Origin: a phage
Direction: 5' to 3' (one strand)
Sequence record: PZ534511.1
DNA length: 64,000 bases
Shown here: one piece after another, positions 1 through 27,119 of the stretch
How the letters are laid out: each line of letters begins with the position of its first letter
How positions within the stretch are numbered: the first letter of the stretch is position 1
The notes under the pieces: generated by a model
Database searches by the model: none
What the model was told of the DNA's origin: nothing
What the model saw: the letters and a program-made list of their open reading frames with translations, nothing else
Program-made: the position numbers and the translations under genes

Positions 1-3000
1 TTGAGAAGTTGTAAGTTCCGTTATAAGTGTGTGTCCCTGAGAATGTGACATCTGCCTTCCCGTAAGAGATGCAAACCAACGCATACTTCCTGTCAGGCAA
101 CGTTTCTCCAGTCTCTGGGTGAGTTTTACCTACCTGGAACACACTCGGGTCAGTAGAGTCGTGACTATCACTAACGGAGCTTGGACCGCCCATCAACTGT
201 GACAAACAATTCCTTACCCATGTCCAGTTATTATCGCTGGAGAAGTCCACAGTCAAATCAAACACAACCCACTCATTTGGCTTCCACACAGGTGTTGCAA
301 TGGACTTGCCTACACCGCCTCCTTGGAGTGTTGCCGACTGTTCGGTGATCAGTGCCGCATAGGCCAGAGTTCCTAAACTCAGAGTCTGGCTTGCTGTCCT
401 CACTACCTTAGAATCAGCATCTGTGAAGTTGTTGATGATTTGGAATGTGCCATAAGTGTTTTTACAGGTAATTCTGGCGTTCAGCGTGTCAATCTTCCTC
501 ACATCTGCCATAGCAGTGTTAGACACAGAGAAGTCAGAAGCTTTAGCTGAGTTTGCCGCAACAGCAGGATCAACGTTAAGAGTTGCGTTGAACTGACAGG
601 CAGGGGTAACCAGCAGCTTGTTATCACCTATTTGCTTCCATGAAATACTTTGGACAGGTAGATTCCATTTAATACCTGAGAAAACTTTAGCAACCCTTGG
701 CCCCAAAGCTCCAGTCCTGTTGTCTTTACAGCACATAGACATGGTGATCGTTGACGGAGTTGCCTGACCGAACAATTCCTGTGCTTTTGCAGAGGACATG
801 GTGTAGAAATTGTCCTTAACAAACTCATCAGCGGCTAAAGATCCATCAGCCCTCCACCACTGGACCTGATACCCTGTTTTATCCCAGCCTCCAACCTGCT
901 TCAAGTCCTCCCAAGAGATTTCCAGATCCCCCGTGGTAGGGTTGATTGCAGCAGTTCCTGGTGTACCGGATGACCACAATGGGATATCAAACCACGCAGG
1001 TTTAACAGATTGCACTGCATTAGGACCTATTGCAGCAGCAAGTTGTTGACCCATCAGCACGCGAGCATCTTTCACCAGGCCCCATTCTATCATAGACCCA
1101 GAGTAACCTTCTTTCTTGTAGGCAGAGGATCCGTTCAAATGGATGAGCCTGCTGCAGTCGAAGCCATACGCTCCACCACCGTTAGGATCTGCAAAGTTGG
1201 TTATGATTCTATCCCTAATATTTTTCCATGCCCTACCTCCAATCTCGTAGTCATGGTCATAACATCTTTGCAACGTTGTCCAGCAAATGATTGCCATTCT
1301 TCTGCCGCCTGTGAACCCGAAAGCGCCGTCATTCAGCTCTTTCCACAGGTAACAGTTGGTTGTCCACATAGCCCTGTGGATATTGAACCAGTTTATAGAT
1401 TTGGCTGAGTTGTTCCACTGAGTCCCAGGTAATTCAGGCCACACTGCATTGACTAGCATGTCCTCTGTACCGGCATCTATTAAGAAGCCTCTTACCTTCT
1501 TGCCCATACCTACCCTGTCTTTAGCAATCCAATTGCCAAACAGTCTCAGTTTTGGACCATAAACAACATCCTCTGGGTGCTCAAAAGAGACATACTTTAA
1601 GTAGATTGTTGGGTCACCGTAGGTGCCATCACAAACACTTTTGTGCATGTTTTCGCCAAGGTCTAGACGAAGCCCCGTCACTACTTTAGACGTGTCGGTG
1701 AATTTGTCTGTTAAGTCAAATTCATACCACCACCACCCACCACCTAGCATAAATTTCTTGCATCGCACAGCGTCTGTGTCAGATATTCTCTTATCCCCTG
1801 CAAAAGGTGAATCAGCAAACTGATAGTGCAGAGCAGTCTCAAATAGGTGGGTGGAAGTTCCGTTCTCTGCAAGAACTTGCTTACCTATCAGATCGCACTT
1901 AATGATCATCACAACACGCTTGTATCCGTTTGTTACCGGAACTTGCATAGATATGGATGTTCCATCCATGTTCGATCTTAGATCACTCATGATGATATAG
2001 GGGTCGACAGCGTTGCCTAAAGTTTCAGGCCCTGGAATTATCTTGTATTTCTTGACCTGGCCCATAAATCTGTCACTGGCGTAAGTTGCAGCCTCAAAAC
2101 AAGAGCCACCACCAGGTAATTCTCCAGGTCCCCAGAAAAATGCCCCATAGCAGTTATAGAACCACTTATTAGGGTCGTATTTGTTCTTGAAGGTCTGGAC
2201 CTCGTTGGCCTGTTTTGTCAAGAAAACCTGCGTGTCTGTGAAGATTGCAGGGTTTACTCTCGCCTGTCTTGGAGGGTAACCTGTAGTTTGGTTAAACCAC
2301 AAATTACAAGAGTAATCCCTCATATAGTCATAATCAGAGTATTTGTTTACATCTTCGTTCCAACACATGTTTAGGTTGGTACCGCCCATGCATACAATAT
2401 ATTCTGCGACATACTTATCACTTCTGGTAGGAATACCTATGAACCATCTGTTAACAGGCTCATCCCAAGCTGTGCGCTCATCTTTAACGCAGATAGCAAT
2501 CCAGTCATGTGTTCCTGTTTTCTTGCACACATCTCGCTTCATACCATAGTAGAACTCTTTAGTATTCGGCTCAGGTGCATTTATCAGGTAACTCCATGCC
2601 TGATTTGCATAAGTTCCATTGGTGCGTGGATCATGATCAAAGGCATACATGATGATCCTTTCCCCACCAAGATGTTCGCCAAGAGTAACTTTGACATTCA
2701 CATCGCCGTAACCATTGCGAACAACATCCATATTATCAATAGAGATACCTCTGGGCGTGTAGGCAATTTTCAGCGAGTTATCTTCACTAGTGCCGCCAAG
2801 TGTAATCCCTATGTTGTTTGTTGTCCCGTCGACATATCTTACTGTAGCTTCCCAGCGTATTCCGAAATACCCTGCATCATGGCTGACAATTTTCAGTGTA
2901 CGAGCTCCTGGGTGAGGTTTTCCAGGATCAGGCCAAGGGTCTGGGTGTTCGTGAACAGTCAACGACGTTCCGTTCTGCTCATTAACCTGCAACATTTTAC

Positions 3001-4948
3001 CACCCTTGCCATTAGGATTGAACTCCCACAAGGCTTGTGTTTTCACAATATTGTCATACGTGGCGCGTCTTTGATCGTAGATCTCTTGGGTCACATCATA
3101 AGTGACTGATCCAGCATCCATTCTGTGGAGTCTGACCATATACGATGTATCCCCTTCTACTGCAGGCTGGGTCCCATTCAGCCCAAAGTATACAGTATCA
3201 TTAACATGGAACTGTTTGTTTCTACCGACAGTATGCCATTTACCATCAGACGGGTACGCAGGAACTATGGTGTTCCAGTTCAAAGTCCTTGTCGTATGGG
3301 TTCTGCCTGTGCCATGCTTGTCATGATAGGTTATTTTTACAGAGTACAGGCCACGTCTGTTAACATTTCTGTTATACTGGGTGACAACAACTTCATTGGC
3401 CCCTCCGTGGTTCCAGTTGGTGGAGAATTGGTAATTTGCATCTGTAACAACCGTGCCTGCAGCATTTACCAGTTCAATCTTGTCAATAATGAACGTAGCC
3501 CCCTCTGGCTGAGGCTTCAATTTCATCTTGACCGTGTCACCAATGTAAATATTGCTAACGCTGCTAACACCGTTAACGTCGAAAATATCCTCAACACCCC
3601 AACTGTCTACCGGGACATTTTTATACCAATTCTCCGGAATCTCTGTGAACCCTTGGCTGTTAAGTCTGCCGCCAAAGAGGTTATTAGATCCTGTAAAACT
3701 TCCCCTTGGGATACCTGACCACCAAAGTTTACCATTAACAACAGTAAAGGTACCTAAGAAACCTTCTCTGTGGATGCCTTGGAAATAAACACTCTCTGTC
3801 CAGCTGACTGGCAGGCGTTGCTCAACATATTTAGCTGTAGCAAGAGCTTGATAGTGGATAAAATCGGCCCTAGGACTATTGTTTGCAGATTGTGCACCAA
3901 TATCATTACATAAGTTGCGAGAGAACCCACGATACTGCTTAGTGCCATTATTGAAGAAAATGCCACTTGTGCCGTACCCACGAGCCATCATTACCTCATG
4001 GGTGTAGGTGATATTCAGTTCCCGCCATGTATCATCTCCCCAAATGTTTTGACCATAAAATACGTTAACAAGCTGCTGGTCATCGGGTCTATGCATCCTC
4101 TGTGTAGCAATTACTGCCCCGTTAGGACCACACATAAACCCTTTCCACTCCTCATCTGCAGGAATGCCCCTCAAATCGTTACGAGTAATCTGCACAGGAG
4201 GCCAAACAAGGTCGTTTCTACTGTTATTTCTCAGAAAGTCGTAACCTGCAATCCAGAATCCGTTAGGACCACCAAAAATAACCGAGTTGTCATGAACTTC
4301 ACAATTAATTCTTGGATTTTTCCAAGGACCTGTCTCTGGACTTTCAGATGTTTCACCGATCTTAACTGGAGTAGCGTGTTGACTTTTGTCAACATGAAGA
4401 GAGCCGTAAGTATTATTGCCAGAGCCGTACAGGTGAAGCATACCATCAGCCTCTGGTGCAGCAATTACCCACACGGTATTGTTTACGCCACCCATTACTT
4501 CAACAAGTCTCTCAGGATGGGTGTCCAAATGCAACCCTGTTACGATCTGTTCCGGCAAAGGTGTCCACTCTCTGACACAAACATCGTTTCCACCTGCTGC
4601 CTCCGATCCGATAAGACCAGCTGTGCAACCAATATAGAAAAATTTATTATCGAATGTGCGGATTACAAATGCACGGTCAGCTCTCCAAACATGGTCTACG
4701 TTCCAAGCTGCCTCATTAGGATAGTTTATTGTATCAAGATCTCCAGTCCGACACTCTCCGAACCTATTATAGCCAGTAATATTAAGCTGACCATCATCAA
4801 AAAGTATAGCTAAGCTATTTACATAGGATACTGTGTTGCTTGTACCATCACTGTTGTCTATTGGGTATGACAGAACAGCAAGTTCCTTAATTCCACCCCT
4901 CTTATCGAGGAAATGACGACCAAGTTTTAGCAAAGGGATTGGAAGCAT
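1..4948 (-). CDS. giant tail fiber/tailspike-like structural protein, N-terminal >=1649 codons (stop lies beyond window start)
   Basis: Minus-strand frame open from ATG (plus 4946-4948, GGAG RBS at 4955-4958) to position 1; manual translation begins MLPIPLLKLGRHFLDKRGGIKELAVLSYP; absent from ORF track, which appears to list only ORFs with an in-window stop; plus-strand ORFs 1010-4813 are Cys/Ile-rich antisense shadows. Confidence 0.6.
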   Translation of the reverse strand, partial: MLPIPLLKLGRHFLDKRGGIKELAVLSYPIDNSDGTSNTVSYVNSLAILFDDGQLNITGYNRFGECRTGDLDTINYPNEAAWNVDHVWRADRAFVIRTFDNKFFYIGCTAGLIGSEAAGGNDVCVREWTPLPEQIVTGLHLDTHPERLVEVMGGVNNTVWVIAAPEADGMLHLYGSGNNTYGSLHVDKSQHATPVKIGETSESPETGPWKNPRINCEVHDNSVIFGGPNGFWIAGYDFLRNNSRNDLVWPPVQITRNDLRGIPADEEWKGFMCGPNGAVIATQRMHRPDDQQLVNVFYGQNIWGDDTWRELNITYTHEVMMARGYGTSGIFFNNGTKQYRGFSRNLCNDIGAQSANNSPRADFIHYQALATAKYVEQRLPVSWTESVYFQGIHREGFLGTFTVVNGKLWWSGIPRGSFTGSNNLFGGRLNSQGFTEIPENWYKNVPVDSWGVEDIFDVNGVSSVSNIYIGDTVKMKLKPQPEGATFIIDKIELVNAAGTVVTDANYQFSTNWNHGGANEVVVTQYNRNVNRRGLYSVKITYHDKHGTGRTHTTRTLNWNTIVPAYPSDGKWHTVGRNKQFHVNDTVYFGLNGTQPAVEGDTSYMVRLHRMDAGSVTYDVTQEIYDQRRATYDNIVKTQALWEFNPNGKGGKMLQVNEQNGTSLTVHEHPDPWPDPGKPHPGARTLKIVSHDAGYFGIRWEATVRYVDGTTNNIGITLGGTSEDNSLKIAYTPRGISIDNMDVVRNGYGDVNVKVTLGEHLGGERIIMYAFDHDPRTNGTYANQAWSYLINAPEPNTKEFYYGMKRDVCKKTGTHDWIAICVKDERTAWDEPVNRWFIGIPTRSDKYVAEYIVCMGGTNLNMCWNEDVNKYSDYDYMRDYSCNLWFNQTTGYPPRQARVNPAIFTDTQVFLTKQANEVQTFKNKYDPNKWFYNCYGAFFWGPGELPGGGSCFEAATYASDRFMGQVKKYKIIPGPETLGNAVDPYIIMSDLRSNMDGTSISMQVPVTNGYKRVVMIIKCDLIGKQVLAENGTSTHLFETALHYQFADSPFAGDKRISDTDAVRCKKFMLGGGWWWYEFDLTDKFTDTSKVVTGLRLDLGENMHKSVCDGTYGDPTIYLKYVSFEHPEDVVYGPKLRLFGNWIAKDRVGMGKKVRGFLIDAGTEDMLVNAVWPELPGTQWNNSAKSINWFNIHRAMWTTNCYLWKELNDGAFGFTGGRRMAIICWTTLQRCYDHDYEIGGRAWKNIRDRIITNFADPNGGGAYGFDCSRLIHLNGSSAYKKEGYSGSMIEWGLVKDARVLMGQQLAAAIGPNAVQSVKPAWFDIPLWSSGTPGTAAINPTTGDLEISWEDLKQVGGWDKTGYQVQWWRADGSLAADEFVKDNFYTMSSAKAQELFGQATPSTITMSMCCKDNRTGALGPRVAKVFSGIKWNLPVQSISWKQIGDNKLLVTPACQFNATLNVDPAVAANSAKASDFSVSNTAMADVRKIDTLNARITCKNTYGTFQIINNFTDADSKVVRTASQTLSLGTLAYAALITEQSATLQGGGVGKSIATPVWKPNEWVVFDLTVDFSSDNNWTWVRNCLSQLMGGPSSVSDSHDSTDPSVFQVGKTHPETGETLPDRKYALVCISYGKADVTFSGTHTYNGTYNFS

Positions 4949-4957
4949 TGTGTTCTC

Positions 4958-4989
4958 CAGATAAGAAAACCGCCCCGTCAGGAGCGGTT
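4958..4989 (-). terminator. rho-independent terminator after 4999..6744 gene
   Basis: Inverted repeat aaccgc/gcggtt (4968-4973 / 4984-4989) with 10-nt loop, followed on the minus-strand RNA by GUUUUCUUAU. Confidence 0.5.
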
Positions 4990-4998
4990 AGATATATA

Positions 4999-6744
4999 TT
5001 AACGTTGTGCAATTACTACGTCTACGATATCACCAACACCACAATATGTTAATTGCAGCAAGGTAACACTATTAGCCTTGTTATTAATAACAGGCGTTGC
5101 CGACAGGATAGCATACTTATCGTGCAAAGTCACGTTGTGACCTACAGCATCCTGAATGACATAGATAACCGCAGTGAATGGATAAGGTTTATCTTCCGCT
5201 GATGTACCAGGCCATTGTCCTATTGTAAAATCCCCTTTCGCGTGGACAACATACATACTGGCCTGCCCGTTAGGTGTCCATGTCCCACTGGACGCGTCAA
5301 CCTCCTCTAAATCAAAATCTACCTTTCCTGCGTGGAAAGTAGGGGCAGTAATGGTTTTACCCGCCTCAATTTCTTGAGAGGTGGTTATCTTGCCACTGGA
5401 GTTAATGCCATTACAAACAAAGTTGACATTAGAGAAGTCTGGCAGCCACCCAGTCACTGTGCCGGATATTTCAAGGTTGTGAAGGTAGGTGGTGCCCGTC
5501 CCTGCTGCGTTTAAACTAACATCTCCATTTACCTGCAAGTTTCTGGTAACGTTGCAGTTTTCAGAGTTTGCAGTTGTTGCAGTTAAAGTAGTGGTTGTCA
5601 GCTCGGTAATTACACCTTTGTTGGCTGTAAGCCCTTCCCCTTCAAAAGTTGCACGCTCATTGACTCTTAGGGTATTCAGAGCTATGTTTTGGATAGAGGC
5701 TGTACCTCGAATAACTACAGATCCGCCAACTTCTAAATCACCATTTATTAATGCGTCCCCCGTGCTTTCAATATAGCTAGGGTAAATCATGGTGCCATCG
5801 ACAGAGTAGGTTATCCCTGTAACAGTGCCTGTCACCTCAAGGTTCTTAACCCTGGTGGTTCCATCTACCTGCAATGTCGGTTCGGTTGCTGCCTTCATGG
5901 CATTACCACGAATGTACACGTAGTCAAAAAAGTTATTACCTAGACCATCAAAATGCACATCGTTATTATTAGCCACTGGTTTCCCAGAAGTTATAGTGTC
6001 AGCTATAACCCTGTGGGTGGACACTTCATGAGGTTGCAGCTCTGTGCTTCTCCAGTCTGCATGCTTAGGATCACTCCACGCAAAAGTAAGTGTAGAAGTA
6101 TTTGCCGTGAGGATTAGGTTCCTGAAGCGTGCAGTAGAATCTGCTCCATTAACAGGCCCATGTAAGGTGAGTGTGCCACCAACTATAGTGTTAGCAAGTT
6201 CTGTAAGACCTTTTACCACCAAAGATCCTACAGTAACTTTCATTCCCTCCATGGCTTCAAATATGCTATCCACATAGTCAACAACAAACTCTGTGTTTGC
6301 TATAGACTCGGATTTGTCGTCCATTGGAGGCGTAGGTACTCGCGGGTCACCTTCGAACCTCGGACTGTTAAGTTTTGCGTAGTATTTTGCCATTACTGCA
6401 GAATCGGTATATAATCTCCAGTTTGGAGATTGTGAAGGATCTGCTGGCATTCTAACCGGGTTAGATTTTGATGCTGCGGGAGCGTACCACCACTGAGGGC
6501 CTGTGTCCCCTTTAAACTCGTACAGCTGGTTAAAAACTGTTGTGGATGCACCATACGCCCAAGGGATCGGTGGCGTTTTAAAATAAAGGGTGTCAAGCAT
6601 GGCTTTTCGTACCGTAGGGATGGTGGTCCCATCCTCTACGACAACTTCATCCACAGCGTTACCGTTGACAATCAGGTGCAAACGTTCAGAATCAACAATT
6701 ACTTGATCTACCGCCTGCTCAAAGCTTGTCATGTCTTGCGCCAT
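4999..6744 (-). CDS. tail fiber/tailspike protein (581 aa)
   Basis: ORF track; Thr/Gly/Asn-rich beta-structure-like repeats (TGTVTGITYSVDG, LEISGTVTGW); position in fiber gene cluster. Confidence 0.5.
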   Translation of the reverse strand: MAQDMTSFEQAVDQVIVDSERLHLIVNGNAVDEVVVEDGTTIPTVRKAMLDTLYFKTPPIPWAYGASTTVFNQLYEFKGDTGPQWWYAPAASKSNPVRMPADPSQSPNWRLYTDSAVMAKYYAKLNSPRFEGDPRVPTPPMDDKSESIANTEFVVDYVDSIFEAMEGMKVTVGSLVVKGLTELANTIVGGTLTLHGPVNGADSTARFRNLILTANTSTLTFAWSDPKHADWRSTELQPHEVSTHRVIADTITSGKPVANNNDVHFDGLGNNFFDYVYIRGNAMKAATEPTLQVDGTTRVKNLEVTGTVTGITYSVDGTMIYPSYIESTGDALINGDLEVGGSVVIRGTASIQNIALNTLRVNERATFEGEGLTANKGVITELTTTTLTATTANSENCNVTRNLQVNGDVSLNAAGTGTTYLHNLEISGTVTGWLPDFSNVNFVCNGINSSGKITTSQEIEAGKTITAPTFHAGKVDFDLEEVDASSGTWTPNGQASMYVVHAKGDFTIGQWPGTSAEDKPYPFTAVIYVIQDAVGHNVTLHDKYAILSATPVINNKANSVTLLQLTYCGVGDIVDVVIAQR

Positions 6745-7031: not shown

Positions 7032-8078
7032 TTAAGCATAAGATATAGTGATCCATTGACCATTTACAAGTTTTTGGATAGCACCTGTCCAGTAATCACC
7101 TTGATAAGGGTGTTTATAAGCGTAGTTACCAGAGCACATCACATGTCCAGGGTAGACTCTTGACTCTCTGTAGGTGGTTTTAAAACGGTTTGCTATCCTT
7201 ACATCATCAACCCCTCTGCTAGGCATAGGGATAGTAAGGTTACCGCTACTGTCTGCGCCGTTACCATTTACCCTGCGGACCACGTTTCTTCCACCAACTG
7301 TTGCATATTGGCCCCTGACGGTTTCATCGTTACAATCAACTCTTCCACCTATTTGAGCGCTTCCGCAGGATTGTTGTCCATTAACAGTGGCTCTTGGTAT
7401 CGTGACCGCATTGGCATTTGCAGAGGAACTTTTTGCATCGTTGCATTCAAGATTTCCTTGGATAGCCAGTCTTGCACGGTTGGCAGTTATAGCATTGAGC
7501 TTCATAGCTGAAAACACAGGCTGCCCACCAGAAGGTTGAAATCTCCAACGGAACCCATCTATTTGGTGAGAAGGATCATCAAGGTCTGTGCCGTCAGCAC
7601 CACCGATGTTGTCCATAATCCAGAAATCCATCGTCGTCTTGTCTGGAGTTATGGTGGTATATATTGCCGCACTGTCTGTTGACGCAGATGCAAACTCGAT
7701 TCTTTGAAGACCTAAAGTTTGAGTCTGAGTCATTATGTCTCCAGACTTGTCAACATATAGATCGTCCATTTCTTCAGGTGAGTATACATTGAGAACTTGA
7801 CGTGCAGCAGCTTTGTCTGGAACGTCTGCTAGATTATTAGTGACCCTTAAGAATCTATTATCCCATCCTGGGACAACATCTTCTGTTAAATGCTTCAACC
7901 ACGCAGAAAGCATGTGAAGTTCAAAGTTAACAACTTCACATGCCATTCTTTGTGTCATATCCCAACCTTTCAATCTCTCTTCTTTTTTTGGTTGAGATTT
8001 ATTCAACTCTCCCGTATTTTCAAGCACAACATCCTGATTGGCCCAAATATCAAGAGGGATAACTGGTTTAGTCATCAC
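7032..8078 (-). CDS. tail fiber/receptor-binding protein, paralog A (348 aa)
   Basis: N-terminus (MMTKPVIPLDIWANQDVVLENTGELNKSQP) and C-terminus (QKLVNGQWITISYA) clearly paralogous to 9090..10130. Confidence 0.45.
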   Translation of the reverse strand: MMTKPVIPLDIWANQDVVLENTGELNKSQPKKEERLKGWDMTQRMACEVVNFELHMLSAWLKHLTEDVVPGWDNRFLRVTNNLADVPDKAAARQVLNVYSPEEMDDLYVDKSGDIMTQTQTLGLQRIEFASASTDSAAIYTTITPDKTTMDFWIMDNIGGADGTDLDDPSHQIDGFRWRFQPSGGQPVFSAMKLNAITANRARLAIQGNLECNDAKSSSANANAVTIPRATVNGQQSCGSAQIGGRVDCNDETVRGQYATVGGRNVVRRVNGNGADSSGNLTIPMPSRGVDDVRIANRFKTTYRESRVYPGHVMCSGNYAYKHPYQGDYWTGAIQKLVNGQWITISYA

Positions 8079-9089: not shown

Positions 9090-10130
9090 CTATGCATAAT
9101 TAACAGTGATCCATTGACCATTTACAAGTTTTTGTAAAGGTCCTGCCCAGTAGGTTGAACCACGCATCTCTTTTTTGTCACCGAAATGCCAGCCTGTGAC
9201 AACGTAGCCGTTGCGGATTGGAGATTCAGAAACGCCGTCCACAAGTCTTGCACCGATTCTGATGTCTTGCACACCTGTCTGCGGGATAGTGATCGTTACA
9301 TCACCGTTACCGTTAGCCGTCACTCCATTCACGGAGCGCACCACATTTCTGTTACCGACAACACAGTGCTGGCTTCTTACAACCATACTGTCACAACTTG
9401 CACCACCATTAACATATACTGACCCAGCCGTCAACTGACTAGCCACATTACAGTTGGTGAATGTTGCTGTATTGCTGATAGTAAGGTTATTGCACCTCAT
9501 GTTATCGACAACTTCAACATTGCCTACCACTTTCAACAGCGCACGATTAGCCGTGATCGCGTTAAGGTACATCAAAGTGAACTCTGGATTAATATCCGGC
9601 TGAGTTGGCTGGAATCTCCAACGAAACGCATCTACTGTAGATGTACCACCATCATCAAACGACCCGGTATTATCACTTAACCCAAAGTCGAGAGTTGTCT
9701 TATCTGGGCCAATAGTTGTCTCTATCCAAGCCTTATCTGTCTCGGCAGCTTTAAAGTTGATACGTTGCAACCCCAAGGGGCCTGTCATTGTATCACCTGT
9801 AACTTTTACATACCTGGCGTCTGCCTCTTCCTTAGTGATAATCCCAAGGTTTCTACGGGCAACAGGGATGTTCAAAAGATCGCTCAAGTTATTATCACGT
9901 ACCAGATAACGGCCTTCTTGAGCGGGGATCTGCTCGTCAGCAATGTATTTTGCCCAAGTTCCGAGCATATTGAAAATATAGTTAAGTTCTTCACAGGATG
10001 GCTTTTGACCAAGATCCCAACCTTTTCTCCACAAATCATCAATCGGGCGTAGCCTGTTCTGTCTGTGGGTGTTAGGCAGAACCTGATCCTCCTCTGCCCA
10101 AATCTCTAATGGAAAACTAGGTTTTGACAT
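9090..10130 (-). CDS. tail fiber/receptor-binding protein, paralog B (346 aa)
   Basis: Shares N- and C-terminal segments with 7032..8078 (MSKPSFPLEIWAEEDQVLPNT ... QKLVNGQWITVNYA); divergent central region. Confidence 0.45.
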   Translation of the reverse strand: MSKPSFPLEIWAEEDQVLPNTHRQNRLRPIDDLWRKGWDLGQKPSCEELNYIFNMLGTWAKYIADEQIPAQEGRYLVRDNNLSDLLNIPVARRNLGIITKEEADARYVKVTGDTMTGPLGLQRINFKAAETDKAWIETTIGPDKTTLDFGLSDNTGSFDDGGTSTVDAFRWRFQPTQPDINPEFTLMYLNAITANRALLKVVGNVEVVDNMRCNNLTISNTATFTNCNVASQLTAGSVYVNGGASCDSMVVRSQHCVVGNRNVVRSVNGVTANGNGDVTITIPQTGVQDIRIGARLVDGVSESPIRNGYVVTGWHFGDKKEMRGSTYWAGPLQKLVNGQWITVNYA

Positions 10131-20015: not shown

Positions 20016-23000
20016 TTACTTCAGTTTCTCTTGCAACCCAGTAACAACCTCTGTCAATTTTTTAACCTGCTCCTCAAGGGCGGTTATTTTATCATCTTGT
20101 TCTCTGCAAACCTGAACAAGCAATCCTGTTACAGCCGCATAGTCAACATTATAGAATCTTTCCTCGGTCATCAGAGGAATACCATCTTGAGTAGGACCAG
20201 GAACCTCTTTCCTTTTCACGAAAGAACCAACCGCTTCAGGCAATGCTTCCATAACCTCTTGAGCAATTACCCCCGCGTGAGGCATACCATTCTCTTTTAG
20301 AGTGTAGGTATAGCCTTTCATCTTACGGATAGCTTCCAACGCGTTAGGAATAACCTCTATGTTATCCTTCAGGTCACGGTCAGAGCTCTGGCTGACAGCG
20401 GTGCACTCTACTACGCCGTTGACAGCAAAGTACCTTGACTTGGCCTCATCTGTCTTAGCACCACAATGCCATACCCAACTGGCAGATGTAGCGTTGTCGT
20501 TTATCTGAAACTCAAGCACGTTCTTCCTGTCTGCGCCATTACCCCAGTAGTACATTCTGCCTGTATTAGAAGGCATGTTGGAAGTGTTGGTAACATCGGT
20601 CCCACCACCTGTATGTATCATGAACTCTGGGTCAAGATTGGAACCTGCGGTTTTAAGAGTAATTCCCTTACCACCAAGCTGCTGCCAAGGTCCCCATGTG
20701 AAAACACTACCTATTGTTGTTCCATAACGCAGGAATTTTTCCCCAAGATATGATATATACTCCTGTACGCAACTCTCTGGAACATTGGCGTAGTTCCTGT
20801 ACACGATAAGCGTACCTGCCCGGGAGCATGGGTAGTTTCTATCAGGTGTGGCTTGAGCATTGGCCTCCTGATGATAAAAACCTTCCCTATCCCCTTTGTA
20901 GTCGTTAAGGTCATTAATCCCCAGACCTTGCCCTCTGTGTTGTATGACCTTGTTCCACGCTCTATGGTTACCACCCTCGATAGATCTGGTGTATAACTGA
21001 TCAAGGCGTCCAGCCATTTGGAAAGCATAGTTTCCAGAGAACGCCACAGACAGTCCACCAACAACCATCGAGCCTTCTGGTCCGTTAACATTACCCGCCA
21101 TTATTTTTGACGGGTTATTAGACCCAAACTGGTTGTTCCAGTCTCCACCAGTATGACATACAAAACCACCAGGGGCCGAGAAAGTACCGTCTTTGTTGAA
21201 ATTGTAGAATCTGTGAGCTGTGCCCACAACATCGCGAACAATAACTTGACCAGCTTCTGGGGTAGATCTGAACTCTGCCTGACCTTTGAGGCCAGCACCA
21301 TTACCGCATTTAGAGGTAAACGTACCGTTAGTTAGATCCTCTGTTCCATCTGATGCACACTGGAATCCTGCATTAGAGAATAACGCCTTTCTAGGGCTGC
21401 CATAGCACAAATAGTCAATACCGTCAGCCCATAGTTCGACTTTAGGCATGTTCATTTTGCTCATCACCGCATAGCGTTCAGCAGTGCCTATATAGTGCCA
21501 CTGTGTGCCGCCGCCAGTGTAGAACCCAGAGGTACCTTTGAAGTCAACAATAGGTCTGGTGTTGGTATTGTTATCTCCAAGAACAGCAAGATTCAAATCT
21601 GCTGACTGGAGAGGCGCAACAAACTTAACACCGTCCTGATTGTCTGTTACAGCTCCGACCTGGTAATCTTGCTCTCTGGTAAACACTTCTACAACATTTC
21701 TACTTGCGTATACGCTGACAGGGAAAGCACGAGCCTCTACATAGAAAGCAACATACTCTTGTTTACCCCTTGTTGGAGCAACCATCCCAAGAAGTGCTTT
21801 TTCATTCTGGTAGAAATTTACTACCCCGTAGAAAGAGTCTCCTCTGTCTGTCCAGCCCCCAGTTCTGTAATGGCACTGCAGAGTAGCGCAGTTCATAGGG
21901 TCACTGCCGGATGACGATCTGGTAACTATGGTAATATCAGTACCAGTTGCTGGAGCATAGTACGGATCTGTTCTAACGATGATTGGGTAGTATTTCCCAT
22001 CTTCCATCCCTGCAGTTCTTGGCAGTGTTAAGAAATCTTTGACACCCGCAGCTATAGGAACTTTGAACAGATTCTGAGCATCTGCCAGGGTTGTAGCCCC
22101 AGTGCCACCTGCGGCGTGAGATAAAGGTTCCCACTTGGCCTTCCGGTTGTTATAAACACCCCATTCCAGAGTGCCGTTACCGGACTCATCCATCCCACCA
22201 TCCCAGACGACCATCTTGGCGGCTTTCTTGGACCCCCAGAAGCCTCTTTCTGCTCCTGAACTACGAATCCACTCTCCAAGTCCCCAGTTTGTCAGCTGAC
22301 CAGTAAGATCCCCAACCTGCATGTATTTAGGGCAGTCTAACACGCCGTCTTCGCGTAAACCTAAATATCTATGAGTTTCAGATCCTTTTGCACCTTTGTG
22401 CAGGTGGATTGTCAACCAAGCCTTATTGTCGTTTCTTACCTCAGAATAGATCCTATATCCATGCTCAAGGACACCGTCAGTATTATATTTATCTCCATGG
22501 AGAATACCTGAGGCCGATTTAACATCTCCCGAGTATTGAGCTAAGTAAAGGTGCCCGAAGGCTGGCGAGTTGTTTTTACCAAGGCCAATATGAGATCTGA
22601 AGGTATCATCGTTACGAGGTCTGACCATCGGCTGCCATGCAGTCCACTGATTTGTGTTGGCCTGATAGGTTCTCAAATACCAAACATCTACGTTAGAGAA
22701 TGGATAGTATTCCTGACGACAACCTGTACCGCCGTTAGCATTGTTCTGCCAAACAATCAAGTGACCAGCACCAGAACCTGCAGGGTAACCATTTGCCTCA
22801 GTTGCATTAGCAGTCATCGGCTGGTAGTATATACCATCCTGATTACCAGTCAAATTATTGATATTGAAATTTGCATCAAGCGCAGCACGCTGCTTATAGA
22901 AAGCACCGATATTGATACGGACTCCAGCGGCATCTCTAGCCCCTGTGCCGCCTTGCTCTATAGCAAGAGGTTGCCACGAAGCTGTTTGTTGGTTCCACAT

Positions 23001-23816
23001 ACCCCAACGGCCTGTTGCATCAAGCTGCAAGTACCCTGCCGTATTTAAATCATCTCCAGCACGGATAACTGTTCTTGTTGGGTTATTTGTCTCTAGGCGT
23101 TTAAATTCATCACGAAGTGCTATTCTTTTTGTTGTTGCTACACCGTTGGTTACTGCAATGGTGTACATAGCTCCGGTGGTAGCGCCACGGAAAATACCAT
23201 CAACAGTTGTAGTATCACGACGAGATACCACACCGTTCAGAAATTTTTCACCAGCTGCTACAGAAGGGTAGTTGGTAGTTCTTCCCTCTTCAATAACTGC
23301 AGGGCCAACAAAGTTATCAAGGTGAATAACATCGCCTACAGTGTGCACTGTACCAAAATCTACACGCTGTGCAAGTGCTTTAGCATCGTTAGCTGTCTGA
23401 ACAGTAACATCCATTACATCCTGGACAGACTGCCCTTCGGCTGTCATGATCATAGATGCGCCAATGGTAGATTCCAGCTCCTCCCTTAGGGACGGGTCAG
23501 TATATACCATCCATGCAGCGTCAGTAATCCCACCATCAGCGTACGGTGAAGACAGTGCAGGAACAGTGTGTGGAAATTCGCCTTTCCAACGCAGGTAGAG
23601 GTCTTCCTCTTCGAAGTAGGCAAAATCCATTGGGCCGTTTAACTTACCACCTTCCTTAAAGGAGATTACATGAGAAACAGTCCCATCCACATGGACAACA
23701 TCGCCAATTTTTACACGACGAGTCAGGTCTGGTTGTTGAACAACCAGGTAATCATCCTCTGTCACTGCGGTAGTGGCAGGAAGAGATTCAATTCTGACAA
23801 CTTTAATATCAGCCAT
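20016..23816 (-). CDS. long tail fiber with C-terminal intramolecular chaperone (peptidase S74-like) domain
   Basis: 1266 aa; C-terminus SSDRDLKDNIEVIPNALEAIRKMKGYTYTLKENGMPHAGVIAQEV...coiled coil matches autoproteolytic chaperone of endosialidase/T5 L-shaped fibre type; N-terminal domain shared with 26451..27119. Confidence 0.6.
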   Translation of the reverse strand: MADIKVVRIESLPATTAVTEDDYLVVQQPDLTRRVKIGDVVHVDGTVSHVISFKEGGKLNGPMDFAYFEEEDLYLRWKGEFPHTVPALSSPYADGGITDAAWMVYTDPSLREELESTIGASMIMTAEGQSVQDVMDVTVQTANDAKALAQRVDFGTVHTVGDVIHLDNFVGPAVIEEGRTTNYPSVAAGEKFLNGVVSRRDTTTVDGIFRGATTGAMYTIAVTNGVATTKRIALRDEFKRLETNNPTRTVIRAGDDLNTAGYLQLDATGRWGMWNQQTASWQPLAIEQGGTGARDAAGVRINIGAFYKQRAALDANFNINNLTGNQDGIYYQPMTANATEANGYPAGSGAGHLIVWQNNANGGTGCRQEYYPFSNVDVWYLRTYQANTNQWTAWQPMVRPRNDDTFRSHIGLGKNNSPAFGHLYLAQYSGDVKSASGILHGDKYNTDGVLEHGYRIYSEVRNDNKAWLTIHLHKGAKGSETHRYLGLREDGVLDCPKYMQVGDLTGQLTNWGLGEWIRSSGAERGFWGSKKAAKMVVWDGGMDESGNGTLEWGVYNNRKAKWEPLSHAAGGTGATTLADAQNLFKVPIAAGVKDFLTLPRTAGMEDGKYYPIIVRTDPYYAPATGTDITIVTRSSSGSDPMNCATLQCHYRTGGWTDRGDSFYGVVNFYQNEKALLGMVAPTRGKQEYVAFYVEARAFPVSVYASRNVVEVFTREQDYQVGAVTDNQDGVKFVAPLQSADLNLAVLGDNNTNTRPIVDFKGTSGFYTGGGTQWHYIGTAERYAVMSKMNMPKVELWADGIDYLCYGSPRKALFSNAGFQCASDGTEDLTNGTFTSKCGNGAGLKGQAEFRSTPEAGQVIVRDVVGTAHRFYNFNKDGTFSAPGGFVCHTGGDWNNQFGSNNPSKIMAGNVNGPEGSMVVGGLSVAFSGNYAFQMAGRLDQLYTRSIEGGNHRAWNKVIQHRGQGLGINDLNDYKGDREGFYHQEANAQATPDRNYPCSRAGTLIVYRNYANVPESCVQEYISYLGEKFLRYGTTIGSVFTWGPWQQLGGKGITLKTAGSNLDPEFMIHTGGGTDVTNTSNMPSNTGRMYYWGNGADRKNVLEFQINDNATSASWVWHCGAKTDEAKSRYFAVNGVVECTAVSQSSDRDLKDNIEVIPNALEAIRKMKGYTYTLKENGMPHAGVIAQEVMEALPEAVGSFVKRKEVPGPTQDGIPLMTEERFYNVDYAAVTGLLVQVCREQDDKITALEEQVKKLTEVVTGLQEKLK

Positions 23817-23851: not shown

Positions 23852-26449
23852 TTAAAGGTACAATCCACGGTATTGAGCATAAAGACCCAGACCGCGAAGG
23901 ATTTCGCCAGAGTGATAGCCAACCGGATCAGAAACTGCCCAGCAGCCGTTTAAAATATTATCCCCATTAATGAAGTGGTGCTTTTGCAGTAGCTTCACAC
24001 AGGCTTCTACAACAATATCTATTTGAGGTATTGTCTCTGAATACCCGCACAGACCTAGCCAGCAGCAACCTGCAAGCCATTCACCTACCACCCACATCCT
24101 GTCCCCTCTGTCTTGATAAGAGTATCCCCCAGAGGTGTTAAAGTCTGTAGGCAGATTTCCTGAATGAGATGACTGGAATCTGTTGAGGAACCATGCCCAT
24201 TTCTGGCAGAACAGGAACAGTCTTTCATCAACAGGTTCTTTATGTTTCTTGAGCTCATATATTGTGCGGCACGCAGCAACAAAAGATCTTGACTGGAGCT
24301 TAGAGTTATCTACCATCTCCCACCAACCAGTCAACCCTTCATTGCCTCTCTGCCATACATAACGTGAGGCAACTGGACCCTCTGTCCTAAATGTATTATT
24401 ATACCAGACTTGAGCGTCATACAGAAAGCCTATTGTATTTGACAATCTATGGCGATCTATGTTTTCTGCACCCATGCAGTAGACTGCTGGGTATTGCATG
24501 CCAGGGTAGGGCCAATTTGGCTTTTCCTCTAAGAGATAGTTTTCCTTATCTATCACCTTTCCGGCAGGGAACACACCCGGTGTGTGCCTGTATGCACCTT
24601 GCTTGTAGTTTCTGACATAGCAATCGCCAACCTTAGCGGTTGATTCTGTCTTGCTTGCCATCCACACGCTAAACCAGATTAGATAAGCATCCCTATCTGC
24701 AATATAGAATTGCGGCAGCGTGTTGACGCAATACAGATCAAACAAGCCATTACCTATCTGCCTGTCGCTTAGACTGAAATCTACAGAGGTTAGTCCCTTA
24801 GGATTAGCAAAGAAAGGTTTAATCTCTTCTTCGGTGTGATGAGGTTGTGTCGGATCTAGTTTGAAATCTCCTAGAGTAAGAGTTTCTGTTATCCATTGTC
24901 CATTGGTGGCATATAGATCAGCATACCATAACCACCTGTCTTTGTCAAGAAATTTGACCCTTACCATCTCATCATCTGATCGATAAGTTACTGAGTTTAA
25001 AGAAATCTCTCTTCCAAAATTGAAAGTTACTTTACCTCTTGCTATATTACAACGGGTGAAGTTGTCAGAGTGGTTGTAAATGTCGGTATCATACTGCATA
25101 CTAACACTAGCACCACCGCTTACGGCAATGTTTTCCTCTTTAGGTAAGAGATACGGATTACCGTCTTTACCAACCACCTCTACGAAATCGGTAACCTTGG
25201 CAACTATTTCTGTTACCTCTGCCCTTCCAAAAGGAACCCCTATCCTGTACTGTTTTTTGTTATTGTTGCCATCATTAAGGATGAAATGTGGCTGGAACAG
25301 AACCCCCTCTCCTCCGAAATTCATAACAATTTCAGCATCTCTGCCTATTTTGTATGTAGTCCCTTTTTGGATTATTTCGCAAGGCTGGCGTGCGTTCATT
25401 CTAAAATTGATATACCCGTCACTGTCCCTGCTCATGACAGGAACTGTTCCTGCAACAAGACAAGTACCATCTGTAAACGGTGCCTTAATCAACGTGGTCT
25501 TTCTAAACAATTTGTCGTAGGCGTTTATATCACTGAAATTAAGCAGTTTGTTGTAAGACTGTTCAAACGCGGTGTAATACTTTTCCTCACCTGTCAAGGT
25601 GTAGAGTTGATAACAAGCGTCACACCACATTTCTTCCCCGTCCAACTCTGGGGCCTGATTATCTGCAACCACGTTTATAGGATTTACAATTACAGGGGAT
25701 CCTGCAGGTATCACCGATCCACCCTGCTCCTGAGGTAATCTTACACAATAGGTCACCTTGTGGCTGCCTGTAACACCCTTATCTTGTAATTGGATTGTGC
25801 CGAACTCTACAGACGTATGACCACTGTCGGCTATGCTACCGTTAGCCCAATAGCGGTTACCATCCCATGCTATGTACCACTCAACCCACCAACTTAATCC
25901 GGATGTTGTCCAATCTGGGTTAGCATCTGTGCCACCGTAAACATCAGAGTCTACAGTGTTTCTTCCTAACACACCGTTATACGCTTGGAATGCCTTGTCC
26001 AGGTATTCCCCCCATGTCGGAGATCCAGCTGGGATTTTTCCTCTACCGTTGGTAAAAGACACCACCACATCTTTAAACCCACCGTGTGATGGAACCCCAT
26101 CTGTGGATAGAGGGTAGTGGGACAATCTTTGCATTTTACTTTCTACGGCATATGCACCCAGAAGATGACTATTGTAAGCTTCCCAAGCATCTTTTGCCCT
26201 ATCCAGATAGAAATCGCTTTTCGATGCCCTGTATGCTTCAATGTATCCCAGAATCAACACAGCTTGGGACTCATGCATTGCCCAATCGTTATTTATCTTA
26301 TTACCTGCCCACCCTGCAGCTATAAGACCATCAGGGTTTACTAGCTTATTTTGTGTAGGTGTGTTGGTAATACCTGTGTTGTTATCGAGGCACTTCCTGT
26401 GCCCCTCAATCATCTGAAATACGTTATCAATGTTGTGTTGAATACGCAT
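23852..26449 (-). CDS. tailspike/tail-associated protein, possible glycan-hydrolase fold (865 aa)
   Basis: ORF track; Trp/Tyr/Asp-rich sequence; sits between two fibre genes; function inferred only. Confidence 0.35.
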   Translation of the reverse strand: MRIQHNIDNVFQMIEGHRKCLDNNTGITNTPTQNKLVNPDGLIAAGWAGNKINNDWAMHESQAVLILGYIEAYRASKSDFYLDRAKDAWEAYNSHLLGAYAVESKMQRLSHYPLSTDGVPSHGGFKDVVVSFTNGRGKIPAGSPTWGEYLDKAFQAYNGVLGRNTVDSDVYGGTDANPDWTTSGLSWWVEWYIAWDGNRYWANGSIADSGHTSVEFGTIQLQDKGVTGSHKVTYCVRLPQEQGGSVIPAGSPVIVNPINVVADNQAPELDGEEMWCDACYQLYTLTGEEKYYTAFEQSYNKLLNFSDINAYDKLFRKTTLIKAPFTDGTCLVAGTVPVMSRDSDGYINFRMNARQPCEIIQKGTTYKIGRDAEIVMNFGGEGVLFQPHFILNDGNNNKKQYRIGVPFGRAEVTEIVAKVTDFVEVVGKDGNPYLLPKEENIAVSGGASVSMQYDTDIYNHSDNFTRCNIARGKVTFNFGREISLNSVTYRSDDEMVRVKFLDKDRWLWYADLYATNGQWITETLTLGDFKLDPTQPHHTEEEIKPFFANPKGLTSVDFSLSDRQIGNGLFDLYCVNTLPQFYIADRDAYLIWFSVWMASKTESTAKVGDCYVRNYKQGAYRHTPGVFPAGKVIDKENYLLEEKPNWPYPGMQYPAVYCMGAENIDRHRLSNTIGFLYDAQVWYNNTFRTEGPVASRYVWQRGNEGLTGWWEMVDNSKLQSRSFVAACRTIYELKKHKEPVDERLFLFCQKWAWFLNRFQSSHSGNLPTDFNTSGGYSYQDRGDRMWVVGEWLAGCCWLGLCGYSETIPQIDIVVEACVKLLQKHHFINGDNILNGCWAVSDPVGYHSGEILRGLGLYAQYRGLYL

Positions 26450-26450
26450 C

Positions 26451-27119
26451 TTAGATAGCTCCTGCGATAATCAGTGCCCCGTACCAAGTTAACCCGTTGT
26501 CGTAGGTTTCCAACTTGAAAATATCTGTTGCACCAGCTGTAAATGTTAGGATAGGATCTCTTCCGTAGGACCATTTAACATTACCAGGCCAATAGACTTT
26601 GTTGCCGCCAGAGGTCTGAGTAATGCATACGGTTATAGTCCTCGCCACCCCTTCAAGACCTTCTGTTTGATTTTCAAAAGAGATTGTGGTATTTGAAGTT
26701 AGTCGAACCTTAAAGGTATCCGCAACTTCAAGATCCATATCAAGCTGACCACCGATAGATCCGTAATCAACTATTCTGCCAGAAGAAGTTGCAGCAAGCT
26801 CACCAAAAACAGACCAGGCATTTGCAGACACACCCCCAGCACCCTCTACAGTGGAGTCTGGGAGGATTATTTTAGGATAATCCCCGTTCCACGTGTAGTA
26901 GCGCTTAGTTTCTGGATCATAAGCAAAGTCCTTCTTGCTCTTAAGATAACCACCCTCTGTGAAATAGACTATCTTAGTGATGCTAAGATCGTTGACAACA
27001 TCGTCAATCTTAGCCTTTCTTGTCCCATCAGTCTGGTTGACAACCAAGAAGTCATCACTCAGGACTGTTTCTGCATCTTCAAGATCTGGAATTGGTATTG
27101 TAGGATAAGCTACAGCCAT
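26451..27119 (-). CDS. short tail fiber/adaptor protein (222 aa)
   Basis: N-terminus (LEDAETVLSDDFLVVNQTDGTRKAKIDDVV...FTEGGYLKSKKDFAYDPETKRYYTWNGDYP) parallels N-terminus of 20016..23816. Confidence 0.4.
   Translation of the reverse strand: MAVAYPTIPIPDLEDAETVLSDDFLVVNQTDGTRKAKIDDVVNDLSITKIVYFTEGGYLKSKKDFAYDPETKRYYTWNGDYPKIILPDSTVEGAGGVSANAWSVFGELAATSSGRIVDYGSIGGQLDMDLEVADTFKVRLTSNTTISFENQTEGLEGVARTITVCITQTSGGNKVYWPGNVKWSYGRDPILTFTAGATDIFKLETYDNGLTWYGALIIAGAI

What the first reader, a model, noticed from the sequence alone, without database searches (positions are those of the whole stretch)
1..4948. Giant fibre-like gene running off the window start, invisible in the ORF track
The minus strand is open for about 1649 codons from the ATG at 4948 to position 1, yet the track lists only short plus-strand antisense ORFs here. 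With the other fibre genes (4999..6744, 7032..8078, 9090..10130, 20016..23816, 23852..26449, 26451..27119) this gives at least seven fibre/spike-type genes, suggesting a branched or multi-receptor host-recognition apparatus.
Basis: seen in the sequence. Interest (0 to 1): 0.45.

Follow-up and report, generated by a model that had tools for sequence, protein, structure and literature searches.

The report
Known giant rV5-type tail-locus gene
The long open frame is real, but it is the already annotated, edge-truncated copy of the largest gene in the tail-fibre locus of rV5-like coliphages (rV5 gp27), a multi-domain sugar-binding-type protein whose role as a "fibre" has never been shown.

Summary
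Observation confirmed. The minus strand is open for 1649 codons from the ATG at 4948 to the window edge. The chance of that is about 3e-44, and dN/dS is 0.05-0.07. The ORF track misses it only because it drops ORFs that run off the window.

The window is a Vequintavirus (rV5-like myophage). The gene is 99.7% identical in DNA to phages DrSchubert ("lateral tail fiber protein with intimin domain") and Mangalyan ("Ig-like domain containing protein"). It is the ortholog of rV5 gp27 (1878 aa). About 227-230 C-terminal residues, including the Big_2 Ig-like domain, lie beyond the window.

The multi-fibre apparatus is published (phi92 and the BASEL collection).

The "fibre" label is not demonstrated. 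The protein reads as an N-terminal RCC1-like propeller, then beta-sandwich domains, a CBM-like jelly-roll, a conserved 570-aa region with no homologue outside the family, and more beta-sandwiches. No fibre-type repeat or fibre domain was found. It follows a predicted terminator. The rV5 virion mass-spectrometry evidence is marginal. The gene is broken or deleted in several sequenced relatives.

Most likely it is a low-copy, conditionally dispensable glycan-binding accessory adhesin of the tail. Already known; low interest.

The parts
2..4948 (-). 5' 88% of the gene: 1649 codons, truncated by the window edge. Ortholog of rV5 gp27, DrSchubert bas50_0041 and Mangalyan gp025. Base 1 is a leftover base of codon 1650.
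   Evidence: Open frame. 99.7% DNA identity to annotated CDSs. PHROG 15684 matched over aa 1-1649 of a 1878-position profile, 3974 bits. dN/dS 0.05-0.07.
4955..4958 (-). Shine-Dalgarno GGAG, 6 nt before the ATG at 4946-4948
   Evidence: Read from the sequence. An RBS is annotated at the same place in Mangalyan.
4968..4989 (-). Intrinsic-terminator-like hairpin (9 pairs, 6 G-C, then a T-rich tail) between the upstream fibre gene (stop at 4999) and this gene. Identical to rV5 terminator t028.
   Evidence: Terminator scan. The identical sequence CCGCTCCTGACGGGGCGGTTTTCTTAT is listed as t028, dG -12.4 kcal/mol, in rV5 Table S4.
3614..4846 (-). aa ~35-445: RCC1-like beta-propeller region. It is the most conserved part of the family and is shared with the last fibre-operon gene of Phapecoctavirus and Seunavirus.
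   Evidence: PHROG 4219 E=4e-7 and PHROG 11922 'tail protein' E=6e-25. PF25390 is sub-threshold in 12 of 16 members. BLAST to ukendt gp231 gives 40% identity over aa 1-197, plus aa 393-440; BLAST to 4MG_038 gives 30%. Both of those pass the Pfam RCC1 repeat threshold and hit PF25390 over aa 40-330. The AF2 model of this part is poor.
2411..3601 (-). aa ~450-846: beta-sandwich (Ig/FN3-like) modules, with poorly modelled segments (aa 562-606 and 629-733) between them
   Evidence: Sub-threshold PF16403 Bact_surface_Ig-like at about aa 506-560 in 12 of 16 members. Beta strands in both models; aa 731-846 has pLDDT 65-84.
1574..2119 (-). aa ~944-1125: beta-jelly-roll resembling carbohydrate-binding modules
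959..1573 (-). aa ~1126-1330: strongly conserved, predicted helical orphan domain. Invariant motifs are EDMLV, NWFNxHRAMW, CW..L.RCY, EIGG and EGY..SMIEWG.
   Evidence: Invariant columns. Helical but pLDDT below 50. A profile of aa 760-1330 found only its own family among 1.84 billion representatives. No Pfam, NCBIfam or PDB sequence hit.
2..958 (-). aa ~1331-1649: further beta-sandwich modules and the most variable part of the family. The Big_2 domain and the terminal domain lie beyond the window.
   Evidence: Beta-sandwich segments aa 1331-1430 and 1530-1640 with pLDDT 60-85. Identity to distant members falls to 12-35%. Big_2 sits at aa 1682-1733 of P0001. Relatives carry 227-230 further residues.

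Best explanation
This is the edge-truncated ortholog of rV5 gp27, the last and largest gene of the late tail-fibre operon of a Vequintavirus.

Shown here: it is a real gene under strong purifying selection. It is modular, with an N-terminal RCC1-like propeller shared with the equivalent gene of related genera, beta-sandwich spacers, a CBM-like jelly-roll, a family-restricted conserved helical domain and variable distal beta-sandwich/Big_2 modules.

Inferred: it is made in small amounts by read-through of the terminator that precedes it. It is carried in low copy on the tail periphery, anchored by its conserved N-terminal module. It acts as an accessory adhesin that binds surface or environmental glycans through its CBM-like and Ig-like modules. 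This would add reversible attachment or host-range breadth. It would not be one of the three core trimeric fibres, and it would not be needed for plaque formation on laboratory hosts.
For: Identity and synteny.

Purifying selection is uniform along the gene (dN/dS 0.05-0.07).

The conservation gradient fits an anchor-plus-variable-tip layout: aa 1-450 is 70-100% identical across the family, and aa 1450-1649 is 12-46% identical. The N-terminal module is reused with different distal parts: an 890-aa protein with Big_2 plus BspA-type LRR in ukendt, and a 567-aa protein with Big_2 in 4MG. In both it is the last gene of the fibre operon.

A terminator lies directly upstream, and the rV5 tables list no promoter for the gene.

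Dispensability: a nonsense codon at position 617 in magaca, four ORFs in V18, about 3 kb deleted in APECc02, and a C-terminal frameshift in DrSchubert. All are from sequenced phage isolates.

Three gp27 peptides appear in the rV5 virion MS table.
Against: Virion presence is weak. The three rV5 peptides are semi- or non-tryptic with low scores, in the same tier as the non-structural rIIA. The authors did not mark gp27 as having MS evidence.

No density has been assigned to it in Vequintavirinae or phi92 cryo-EM.

AF2 confidence is low for more than half of the protein (mean pLDDT 45 and 53, from 16 sequences). The domain map is therefore partial, and the oligomeric state is untested.

Glycan binding is inferred from fold only.

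Some of the 'broken' alleles could be sequencing errors, although the APECc02 deletion is not.

The very low dN/dS, even in the distal part, is unusual for a host-range determinant under an arms race.
Confidence: 0.5

Rival explanations
1. It is a classical homotrimeric lateral tail fibre subunit: one of the three fibre sets seen in phi92-type baseplates, or the distal part of one. It would act as a primary receptor-binding protein that sets host range.
For: It lies in the fibre operon next to bona fide fibre genes. The BASEL authors annotate it as a lateral tail fibre and count it among the three large fibre genes with allelic variation. Fibre II of phi92 is still unassigned. The conserved N-terminus and variable C-terminus are typical of fibres.
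Against: No fibre-type domain, coiled coil, beta-helix signature, collagen-like repeat or adjacent chaperone was found. The architecture is a chain of globular modules starting with a propeller. The gene is broken or largely deleted in several sequenced relatives. A terminator upstream suggests lower expression than the other fibre genes. dN/dS is 0.05-0.07 with no diversifying segment. phi92 has only a 295-aa weak structural relative, gp153.
Confidence: 0.2
2. It is not a stable virion component. It would be a late-expressed accessory protein released at lysis or acting inside the infected cell, for example a glycan-binding or glycan-modifying factor using the conserved orphan domain, or an assembly factor.
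For: The MS evidence is marginal and sits in the same tier as rIIA. No cryo-EM density has been assigned. The helical domain is strongly conserved, with invariant acidic, His and Arg residues that look like a catalytic site. The gene is dispensable in some isolates.
Against: It is the last cistron of the structural late operon in three genera. The N-terminal module matches a PHROG annotated as 'tail protein'. Ig-like, CBM and propeller strings are typical of virion surface proteins. No signal peptide or enzymatic family was detected.
Confidence: 0.15
3. It is a head, neck or whisker decoration of the Hoc type. Its Ig-like domains would hold the phage in mucus or on animal-derived glycans rather than on the bacterium.
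For: It has Ig-like/Big_2 modules and a CBM-like domain. It is dispensable in culture yet under strong purifying selection in nature. Many isolates come from gut, faecal or sewage sources. One weak profile match is to a phage decoration protein (E=0.63).
Against: The gene sits in the tail-fibre operon, far from the head genes. Its N-terminal module is shared with proteins annotated as tail proteins. There is no experimental link to mucin binding.
Confidence: 0.1
4. It is a chance open frame or a decaying pseudogene.
For: Broken copies exist in some relatives.
Against: The chance of no stop is 3.5e-44. dN/dS is 0.05-0.07. The gene is intact, at 1875-1878 aa, in most of the 109 near-full-length matches.
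Confidence: 0.01

Closest known systems
Escherichia phage rV5 gp27 (1878 aa, 'conserved hypothetical protein', Big_2). Equivalent to DrSchubert bas50_0041 'lateral tail fiber protein with intimin domain', Mangalyan gp025 and FV3 ORF027 'Ig-like domain-containing protein'. PHROG 15684.
   Same: Same gene: 87-99.7% DNA identity over all 4948 bases, the same start codon, the same upstream terminator t028, and the same position after the gp28-type fibre gene.
   Different: The window copy lacks the last 227-230 codons because the window ends. Nothing else distinguishes it.
Last gene of the fibre operon in related genera: Phapecoctavirus ukendt gp231 ('tail protein', 890 aa) and Seunavirus 4MG_038 ('Ig domain-containing protein', 567 aa)
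   Same: Homologous N-terminal RCC1-like module (30-40% identity over aa 1-200, plus the last blade). Big_2 Ig-like domains. Same operon position.
   Different: They lack the roughly 900-aa middle of the Vequintavirus protein (extra sandwiches, CBM-like jelly-roll, orphan helical domain). ukendt gp231 carries a BspA-type LRR/DUF285-like C-terminus instead.
Phage N4 gp65 non-contractile tail sheath (PDB 9lc0_I) and other beta-sandwich-string tail proteins (lambda J, R4C Megatron, T5 pb3)
   Different: TM-scores are only about 0.12 and sequence identity 8-9%, with no sequence homology. The resemblance is in module type, not in overall architecture or family.
phi92 multivalent adsorption apparatus (gp143 endosialidase fibre I, gp147 fibre III, unassigned fibre II)
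   Same: Related myophage lineage with an orthologous fibre locus and several co-expressed fibre sets.
   Different: phi92 has no full-length ortholog. Only gp153 (295 aa) matches weakly by fold, at 18% identity over 154 columns. None of the phi92 fibre candidates corresponds to this protein.
T4 Hoc and other Ig-like-domain virion decorations (my own knowledge: the Barr et al. 2013 model of phage adherence to mucus)
   Same: Non-essential virion proteins with Ig-like domains, proposed to bind glycans weakly.
   Different: Hoc is a small capsid protein encoded with the head genes. This is a 208-kDa product of the tail-fibre operon with propeller and CBM-like modules. No homology was detected.

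Membership tests
rV5 gp27 / PHROG 15684 family | End-to-end sequence similarity to family members | tested here: met
   PHROG 15684 E=0, 3974 bits, aa 1-1649 on profile 1-1649 of 1878. 95% identity to P0001. 99.7% DNA identity to DrSchubert and Mangalyan.
rV5 gp27 / PHROG 15684 family | Position as last gene of the late tail-fibre operon, after the gp28-type fibre gene and terminator t028 | tested here: met
   Gene order in the window matches DrSchubert, Mangalyan, FV3 and rV5. The hairpin is identical to t028.
rV5 gp27 / PHROG 15684 family | C-terminal Big_2 Ig-like domain and terminal domain | not testable with these tools
   Big_2 lies at aa 1682-1733 of full-length members. The window ends at aa 1649.
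Trimeric phage tail fibre / tailspike | Fibrous shaft or beta-helix repeats, a known fibre N-terminal adaptor, or an S74 or separate chaperone | tested here: not met
   No Pfam family at E<=1. The only PHROG tail hit is the RCC1-like N-terminus. No collagen-like repeat. The models show discrete sandwiches and helices. The only chaperone gene in the locus sits between the two short-fibre paralogs. Caveat: model confidence is low for about half of the protein, and the C-terminus is missing.
Trimeric phage tail fibre / tailspike | Demonstrated presence on the tail of the virion | tested here: inconclusive
   rV5 MS gives 3 low-score peptides, 9 spectra and 3.1% coverage, and was not claimed by the authors. 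Cryo-EM of Bas49 and Bas54 resolved three fibres out of nine annotated fibre proteins.
Trimeric phage tail fibre / tailspike | Homotrimeric assembly | not testable with these tools
   Only monomer prediction was available.
Intimin/invasin adhesins (NF033627) | Full-length match: N-terminal beta-barrel anchor, Big arrays and a C-type lectin tip | tested here: not met
   Only a 39-residue Big_2 stretch of the full-length homologue matches, at 21.5 bits against a cut-off of 1400. The window part has no hit. 'Intimin domain' in the GenBank name means no more than a Big_2 fold.
RCC1-like beta-propeller (PF25390 / PF00415) | Profile match to RCC1 repeats across about seven blades | tested here: inconclusive
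   The window protein has no Pfam hit but hits PHROG 4219 at E=4e-7. 12 of 16 members hit PF25390 below threshold, best E=1e-4. The homologous N-termini of ukendt gp231 and 4MG_038 pass the RCC1 repeat cut-off and cover PF25390 over about 290 aa. Blade-by-blade self-comparison was weak, best non-trivial E=0.0016. The AF2 model is poor.
Carbohydrate-binding module (beta-jelly-roll CBMs) | CBM fold | tested here: met
Carbohydrate-binding module (beta-jelly-roll CBMs) | Sequence membership of a CAZy/Pfam CBM family and a demonstrated sugar-binding site | tested here: not met
   No Pfam, NCBIfam or PDB sequence match. No homologue outside the family. Binding itself cannot be tested here.

The most novel reading that the evidence does not exclude
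The protein is not a fibre. It is a new kind of low-copy, conditionally dispensable virion adhesin. An RCC1-like propeller docks it on the tail. A CBM-like module plus Ig-like modules bind glycans of the natural habitat (gut mucus, or a capsule/ECA-type polymer). The 570-aa region with no homologue outside the family, with its invariant EDMLV / HRAMW / EIGG / SMIEWG motifs, is a previously undescribed glycan-active enzyme fold. This would explain why the gene is under strong purifying selection in nature yet is repeatedly lost in laboratory-propagated isolates.
Probability: 0.15. Interest if true: 0.5.

Novelty: already known. Interest (0 to 1): 0.15.

Why it matters
For the scan, it shows that the "invisible giant gene" is a track artefact at the window edge. 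It also shows that the multi-fibre inference repeats published knowledge on rV5-, phi92- and BASEL-type phages.

The remaining value is modest. Nobody has shown what gp27-type proteins do. Most of the annotated fibre proteins of these therapeutically popular, broad-host-range phages have no assigned density. This one has a conserved orphan domain and an odd pattern: strong purifying selection, yet frequent loss in isolates. Knowing whether it matters for host range or gut retention would help phage-therapy cocktail design. That question needs experiments, not this window.

Tried and rejected
1. AF2 of aa 1-860 with the 16-sequence alignment gave mean pLDDT 45. The propeller was not modelled, so I ran no fold search on it.
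2. A second word-indexed homologue search, using the family alignment as query, returned the same 15 clusters.
3. phmmer and profile searches against PDB sequences found nothing meaningful. The best hits were a T-cell receptor chain at E=0.19 and a phage decoration protein at E=0.63.
4. An exhaustive profile search of aa 760-1330 against 1.84 billion representatives found only the family itself and one fragment. No remote family could be named for the orphan region.
5. hhalign blade-versus-blade comparison of the N-terminal region: the strong hits were only the deliberate 11-residue overlaps. The real cross-blade signal was weak.
6. Foldseek against PDB on the multi-domain model gave long, low-TM (0.12) alignments. 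I use these only as 'same kind of modules'.
7. I treated the rV5 MS entry for locus 27 as support at first. I downgraded it after reading the peptides.
8. The Schwarzer 2012 (phi92) and Santos 2011 (PVP-SE1) papers are not held, so their virion proteomes could not be checked.
9. O157 typing phage 14 shows a 415-aa stump, but the record is a partial genome. I do not count it as a deletion.
10. The intimin reading was rejected.
Full report
**1. The observation**

Translating window 4948..1 on the minus strand gives 1649 sense codons beginning MLPIPLL, with no stop. The other five frames of the same stretch contain 32 to 156 stops. Given the local base composition, the probability of no stop in 1649 codons is about 3.5e-44.

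The ORF lister reports only four plus-strand antisense ORFs here. By its own definition it leaves out ORFs that run off the source. That is the whole explanation for the gene being "invisible in the ORF track".

The ATG at 4946-4948 follows a GGAG six bases upstream. It is the annotated start of the same gene in two near-identical phages. The first methionine is invariant across all family members.

**2. What it is**

The 4948 bases match 121 phage records, and 109 of them match over at least 80% of the length. Nearly all are Escherichia phages of the genus Vequintavirus.
- The best matches, at 99.7% identity, are phage DrSchubert of the BASEL collection and phage Mangalyan.
- In DrSchubert the CDS is annotated "lateral tail fiber protein with intimin domain" (1818 aa). 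In Mangalyan it is "Ig-like domain containing protein" (1875 aa).
- Gene-by-gene comparison with the published rV5 table shows it is the ortholog of rV5 gene 27. That gene is an 1878-aa, 208-kDa "conserved hypothetical protein" with a Big_2 domain. It lies after gene 28 at the end of the late tail operon.
- PHROG 15684 ("unknown function") matches from residue 1 to 1649 of a 1878-position profile.

Aligning the window gene with five relatives shows that full-length alleles continue for another 227-230 residues past the window edge. Those residues contain the Big_2 domain and a terminal domain that comes in two allelic types.

The other end of the window (40000-64000) matches a different Vequintavirus best: HdK5, at 97.7%. 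The genome is therefore a mosaic member of the genus rather than a copy of one deposited record.

**3. The surrounding fibre genes**

DrSchubert annotates ten fibre-type products in the locus:
- lateral fibres with glycosidase, deacetylase or FN3 domains;
- two short-fibre paralogs with a chaperone between them;
- a sialidase-domain protein.

This is established knowledge.
- It cites the phi92 "nanosized Swiss army knife".
- The RBPseg study counts nine annotated fibre proteins in two Vequintavirinae, but found density for only three fibres (PMC12143355).
- The 2026 phi92 structure assigns fibre I and fibre III and leaves fibre II open (PMC13450770).

**4. Anatomy of the protein**

The family is narrow. 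Two searches of 5.8 billion clustered proteins returned the same 15 clusters, of 1711-1976 aa and 45-95% identity.

Conservation is highest in aa 1-450, at 70-100% identity even to the most distant member. It is lowest in aa 1450-1649, at 12-46%.

*N-terminus, aa ~35-445: probably an RCC1-like beta-propeller.*
- The window protein hits PHROG 4219 ("regulator of chromosome condensation") at 4e-7 and PHROG 11922 ("tail protein") at 6e-25.
- Twelve of 16 members hit Pfam PF25390 below threshold.
- The homologous N-termini of the last fibre-operon gene in Phapecoctavirus ukendt (gp231, 890 aa) and Seunavirus 4MG (gp038, 567 aa) align to aa 1-200 and to aa 392-449.
- Both of those pass the Pfam RCC1 repeat threshold and cover PF25390 over about 290 residues.
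- My blade-versus-blade profile comparison was weak, and AF2 failed on this part. I rate the assignment as probable, not proven.

*aa ~450-846.* There are beta-sandwich modules. Support comes from sub-threshold Bact_surface_Ig-like hits and from strands in both models, with pLDDT 65-84 for aa 731-846.

*aa ~1126-1330.* This stretch, and the wider aa 760-1330 block, is strongly conserved with many invariant acidic, His, Arg, Trp and Cys residues. It is predicted helical at low confidence. An exhaustive HMMER scan of 1.84 billion representatives found no homologue outside the family. It has no Pfam, NCBIfam or PDB sequence match either.

*aa ~1331-1649.* These are again beta-sandwiches.

The best overall structural neighbours are phage tail proteins built as strings of such modules: N4 non-contractile sheath, lambda J, the Megatron protein and T5 pb3. 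TM-scores are only about 0.12, so this is a resemblance of parts, not of family.

The "intimin domain" of the GenBank name is a 39-residue Big_2 match, worth 21.5 bits against a cut-off of 1400. It lies outside the window.

**5. Is it a fibre?**

I found nothing fibre-like in the strict sense. There is no fibre or spike Pfam domain, no collagen-like or other shaft repeat, no S74 domain in the part present, and no adjacent chaperone.

The gene is preceded by an intrinsic-terminator-like hairpin at 4989..4968. Its sequence is identical to terminator t028 of the rV5 paper, which lists no promoter for gene 27. Expression by read-through, at a lower level than the upstream fibre genes, is a reasonable inference.

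The rV5 virion mass-spectrometry table does list locus 27, with 3 peptides, 9 spectra and 3.1% coverage. However, the peptides are semi- or non-tryptic with low scores. They sit beside rIIA, which is not structural, and the authors did not flag gp27 as having MS evidence. Presence in virions is therefore open.

**6. Selection and loss**

dN/dS between the window and V5, FV3 and magaca is 0.051, 0.071 and 0.074. It is low in every 150-codon block. dS swings from 0.02 to 1.26 between blocks, which is the signature of recombination between alleles. The protein is clearly functional in nature, and no segment shows diversifying selection.

The gene is nevertheless damaged in several deposited phages:
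- magaca has an in-frame stop at codon 617;
- V18 has four ORFs;
- APECc02 retains only about 2.7 kb, in three ORFs;
- DrSchubert has a C-terminal frameshift;
- naswa, ECP26, YP-6 and EPFV3 are annotated as two ORFs.

Some of these may be sequencing errors, but the APECc02 deletion is not. The simplest reading is an accessory function that is not needed for plaque growth on laboratory hosts.

**7. Best explanation and rivals**

I commit to the following, at confidence about 0.5. This is a low-copy, tail-associated accessory adhesin. It is anchored through its conserved N-terminal propeller module. It binds glycans through the CBM-like and Ig-like modules, and it is conditionally dispensable.

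The rivals are:
- a true trimeric lateral fibre, perhaps the unassigned one (0.2);
- a late, non-virion accessory or enzymatic protein (0.15);
- a Hoc-like decoration for mucus adherence (0.1);
- chance or a pseudogene (0.01, refuted by the selection analysis).

Shown here: the gene's reality, its identity, its synteny, its modular map in part, the terminator, purifying selection, and the damage in relatives.

Inferred: location on the virion, copy number, glycan binding, and the anchor role of the N-terminus.

**8. Novelty and verdict**

The gene and the multi-fibre apparatus are already known and annotated in more than a hundred genomes. The window adds nothing beyond a truncated copy.

The only points a specialist might find mildly interesting are the non-fibre architecture, the orphan conserved domain, and the contrast between strong purifying selection and repeated loss in isolates. 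None of these can be resolved from this window. Interest 0.15.

Noticed in passing
window 4968-4989 (-): An intrinsic-terminator-like hairpin lies directly between the stop of the upstream fibre gene (4999) and this gene's RBS. It is identical to the published rV5 terminator t028. It implies that the giant gene is expressed by read-through.
   Followed up: partly
L005 (magaca), L006 (V18), L008 (APECc02), L001 (DrSchubert); corresponds to window 1-4948: The same gene is interrupted or shortened in several deposited Vequintaviruses. magaca has a nonsense codon at 617. V18 has four ORFs. APECc02 has about 3 kb deleted. DrSchubert has a frameshift that truncates it to 1818 aa. Four more records are annotated as two ORFs.
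   Followed up: partly
window 959-2671 (-), aa 760-1330: A 570-aa block with dozens of invariant residues has no detectable homologue outside this phage family in a 1.84-billion-protein exhaustive HMMER scan. The helical half (aa 1126-1330) looks like a catalytic domain, but no fold could be assigned.
   Followed up: partly
window 1-4948, compared with L010 (V5) and L009 (FV3): Synonymous divergence is strongly mosaic along the gene: dS is 0.02 in some 150-codon blocks and above 1.2 in others against the same phage. dN/dS stays at or below 0.17. This indicates frequent recombination between alleles under purifying selection.
   Followed up: partly
phage collection hits to window 1-4948 and 40000-64000: Fifteen to twenty GenBank records named 'Campylobacter phage' (MG0656xx, host Campylobacter jejuni) are 91-97% identical to this E. 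coli Vequintavirus over whole regions. The host labels look doubtful.
   Followed up: no
L003:7001-9673 (ukendt gp231): The Phapecoctavirus counterpart joins the same N-terminal RCC1-like module to Big_2 domains and a C-terminus with weak BspA-type LRR / DUF285 / PARCEL-repeat hits. One anchor module is therefore combined with different distal modules in different genera.
   Followed up: partly
window 40000-64000 versus 1-4948: The two ends of the window have different closest relatives: HdK5 at 97.7% versus DrSchubert and Mangalyan at 99.7%. The genome is a mosaic not identical to any record in the collection.
   Followed up: no
window 7032-8078, 8491-9075, 9090-10130 (-): Two paralogous short-tail-fibre genes (both PHROG 4465) flank a tail-fibre chaperone gene, as in rV5 gp30, gp32 and gp33. 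The BASEL paper relates them to Mu GpS and GpU.
   Followed up: no
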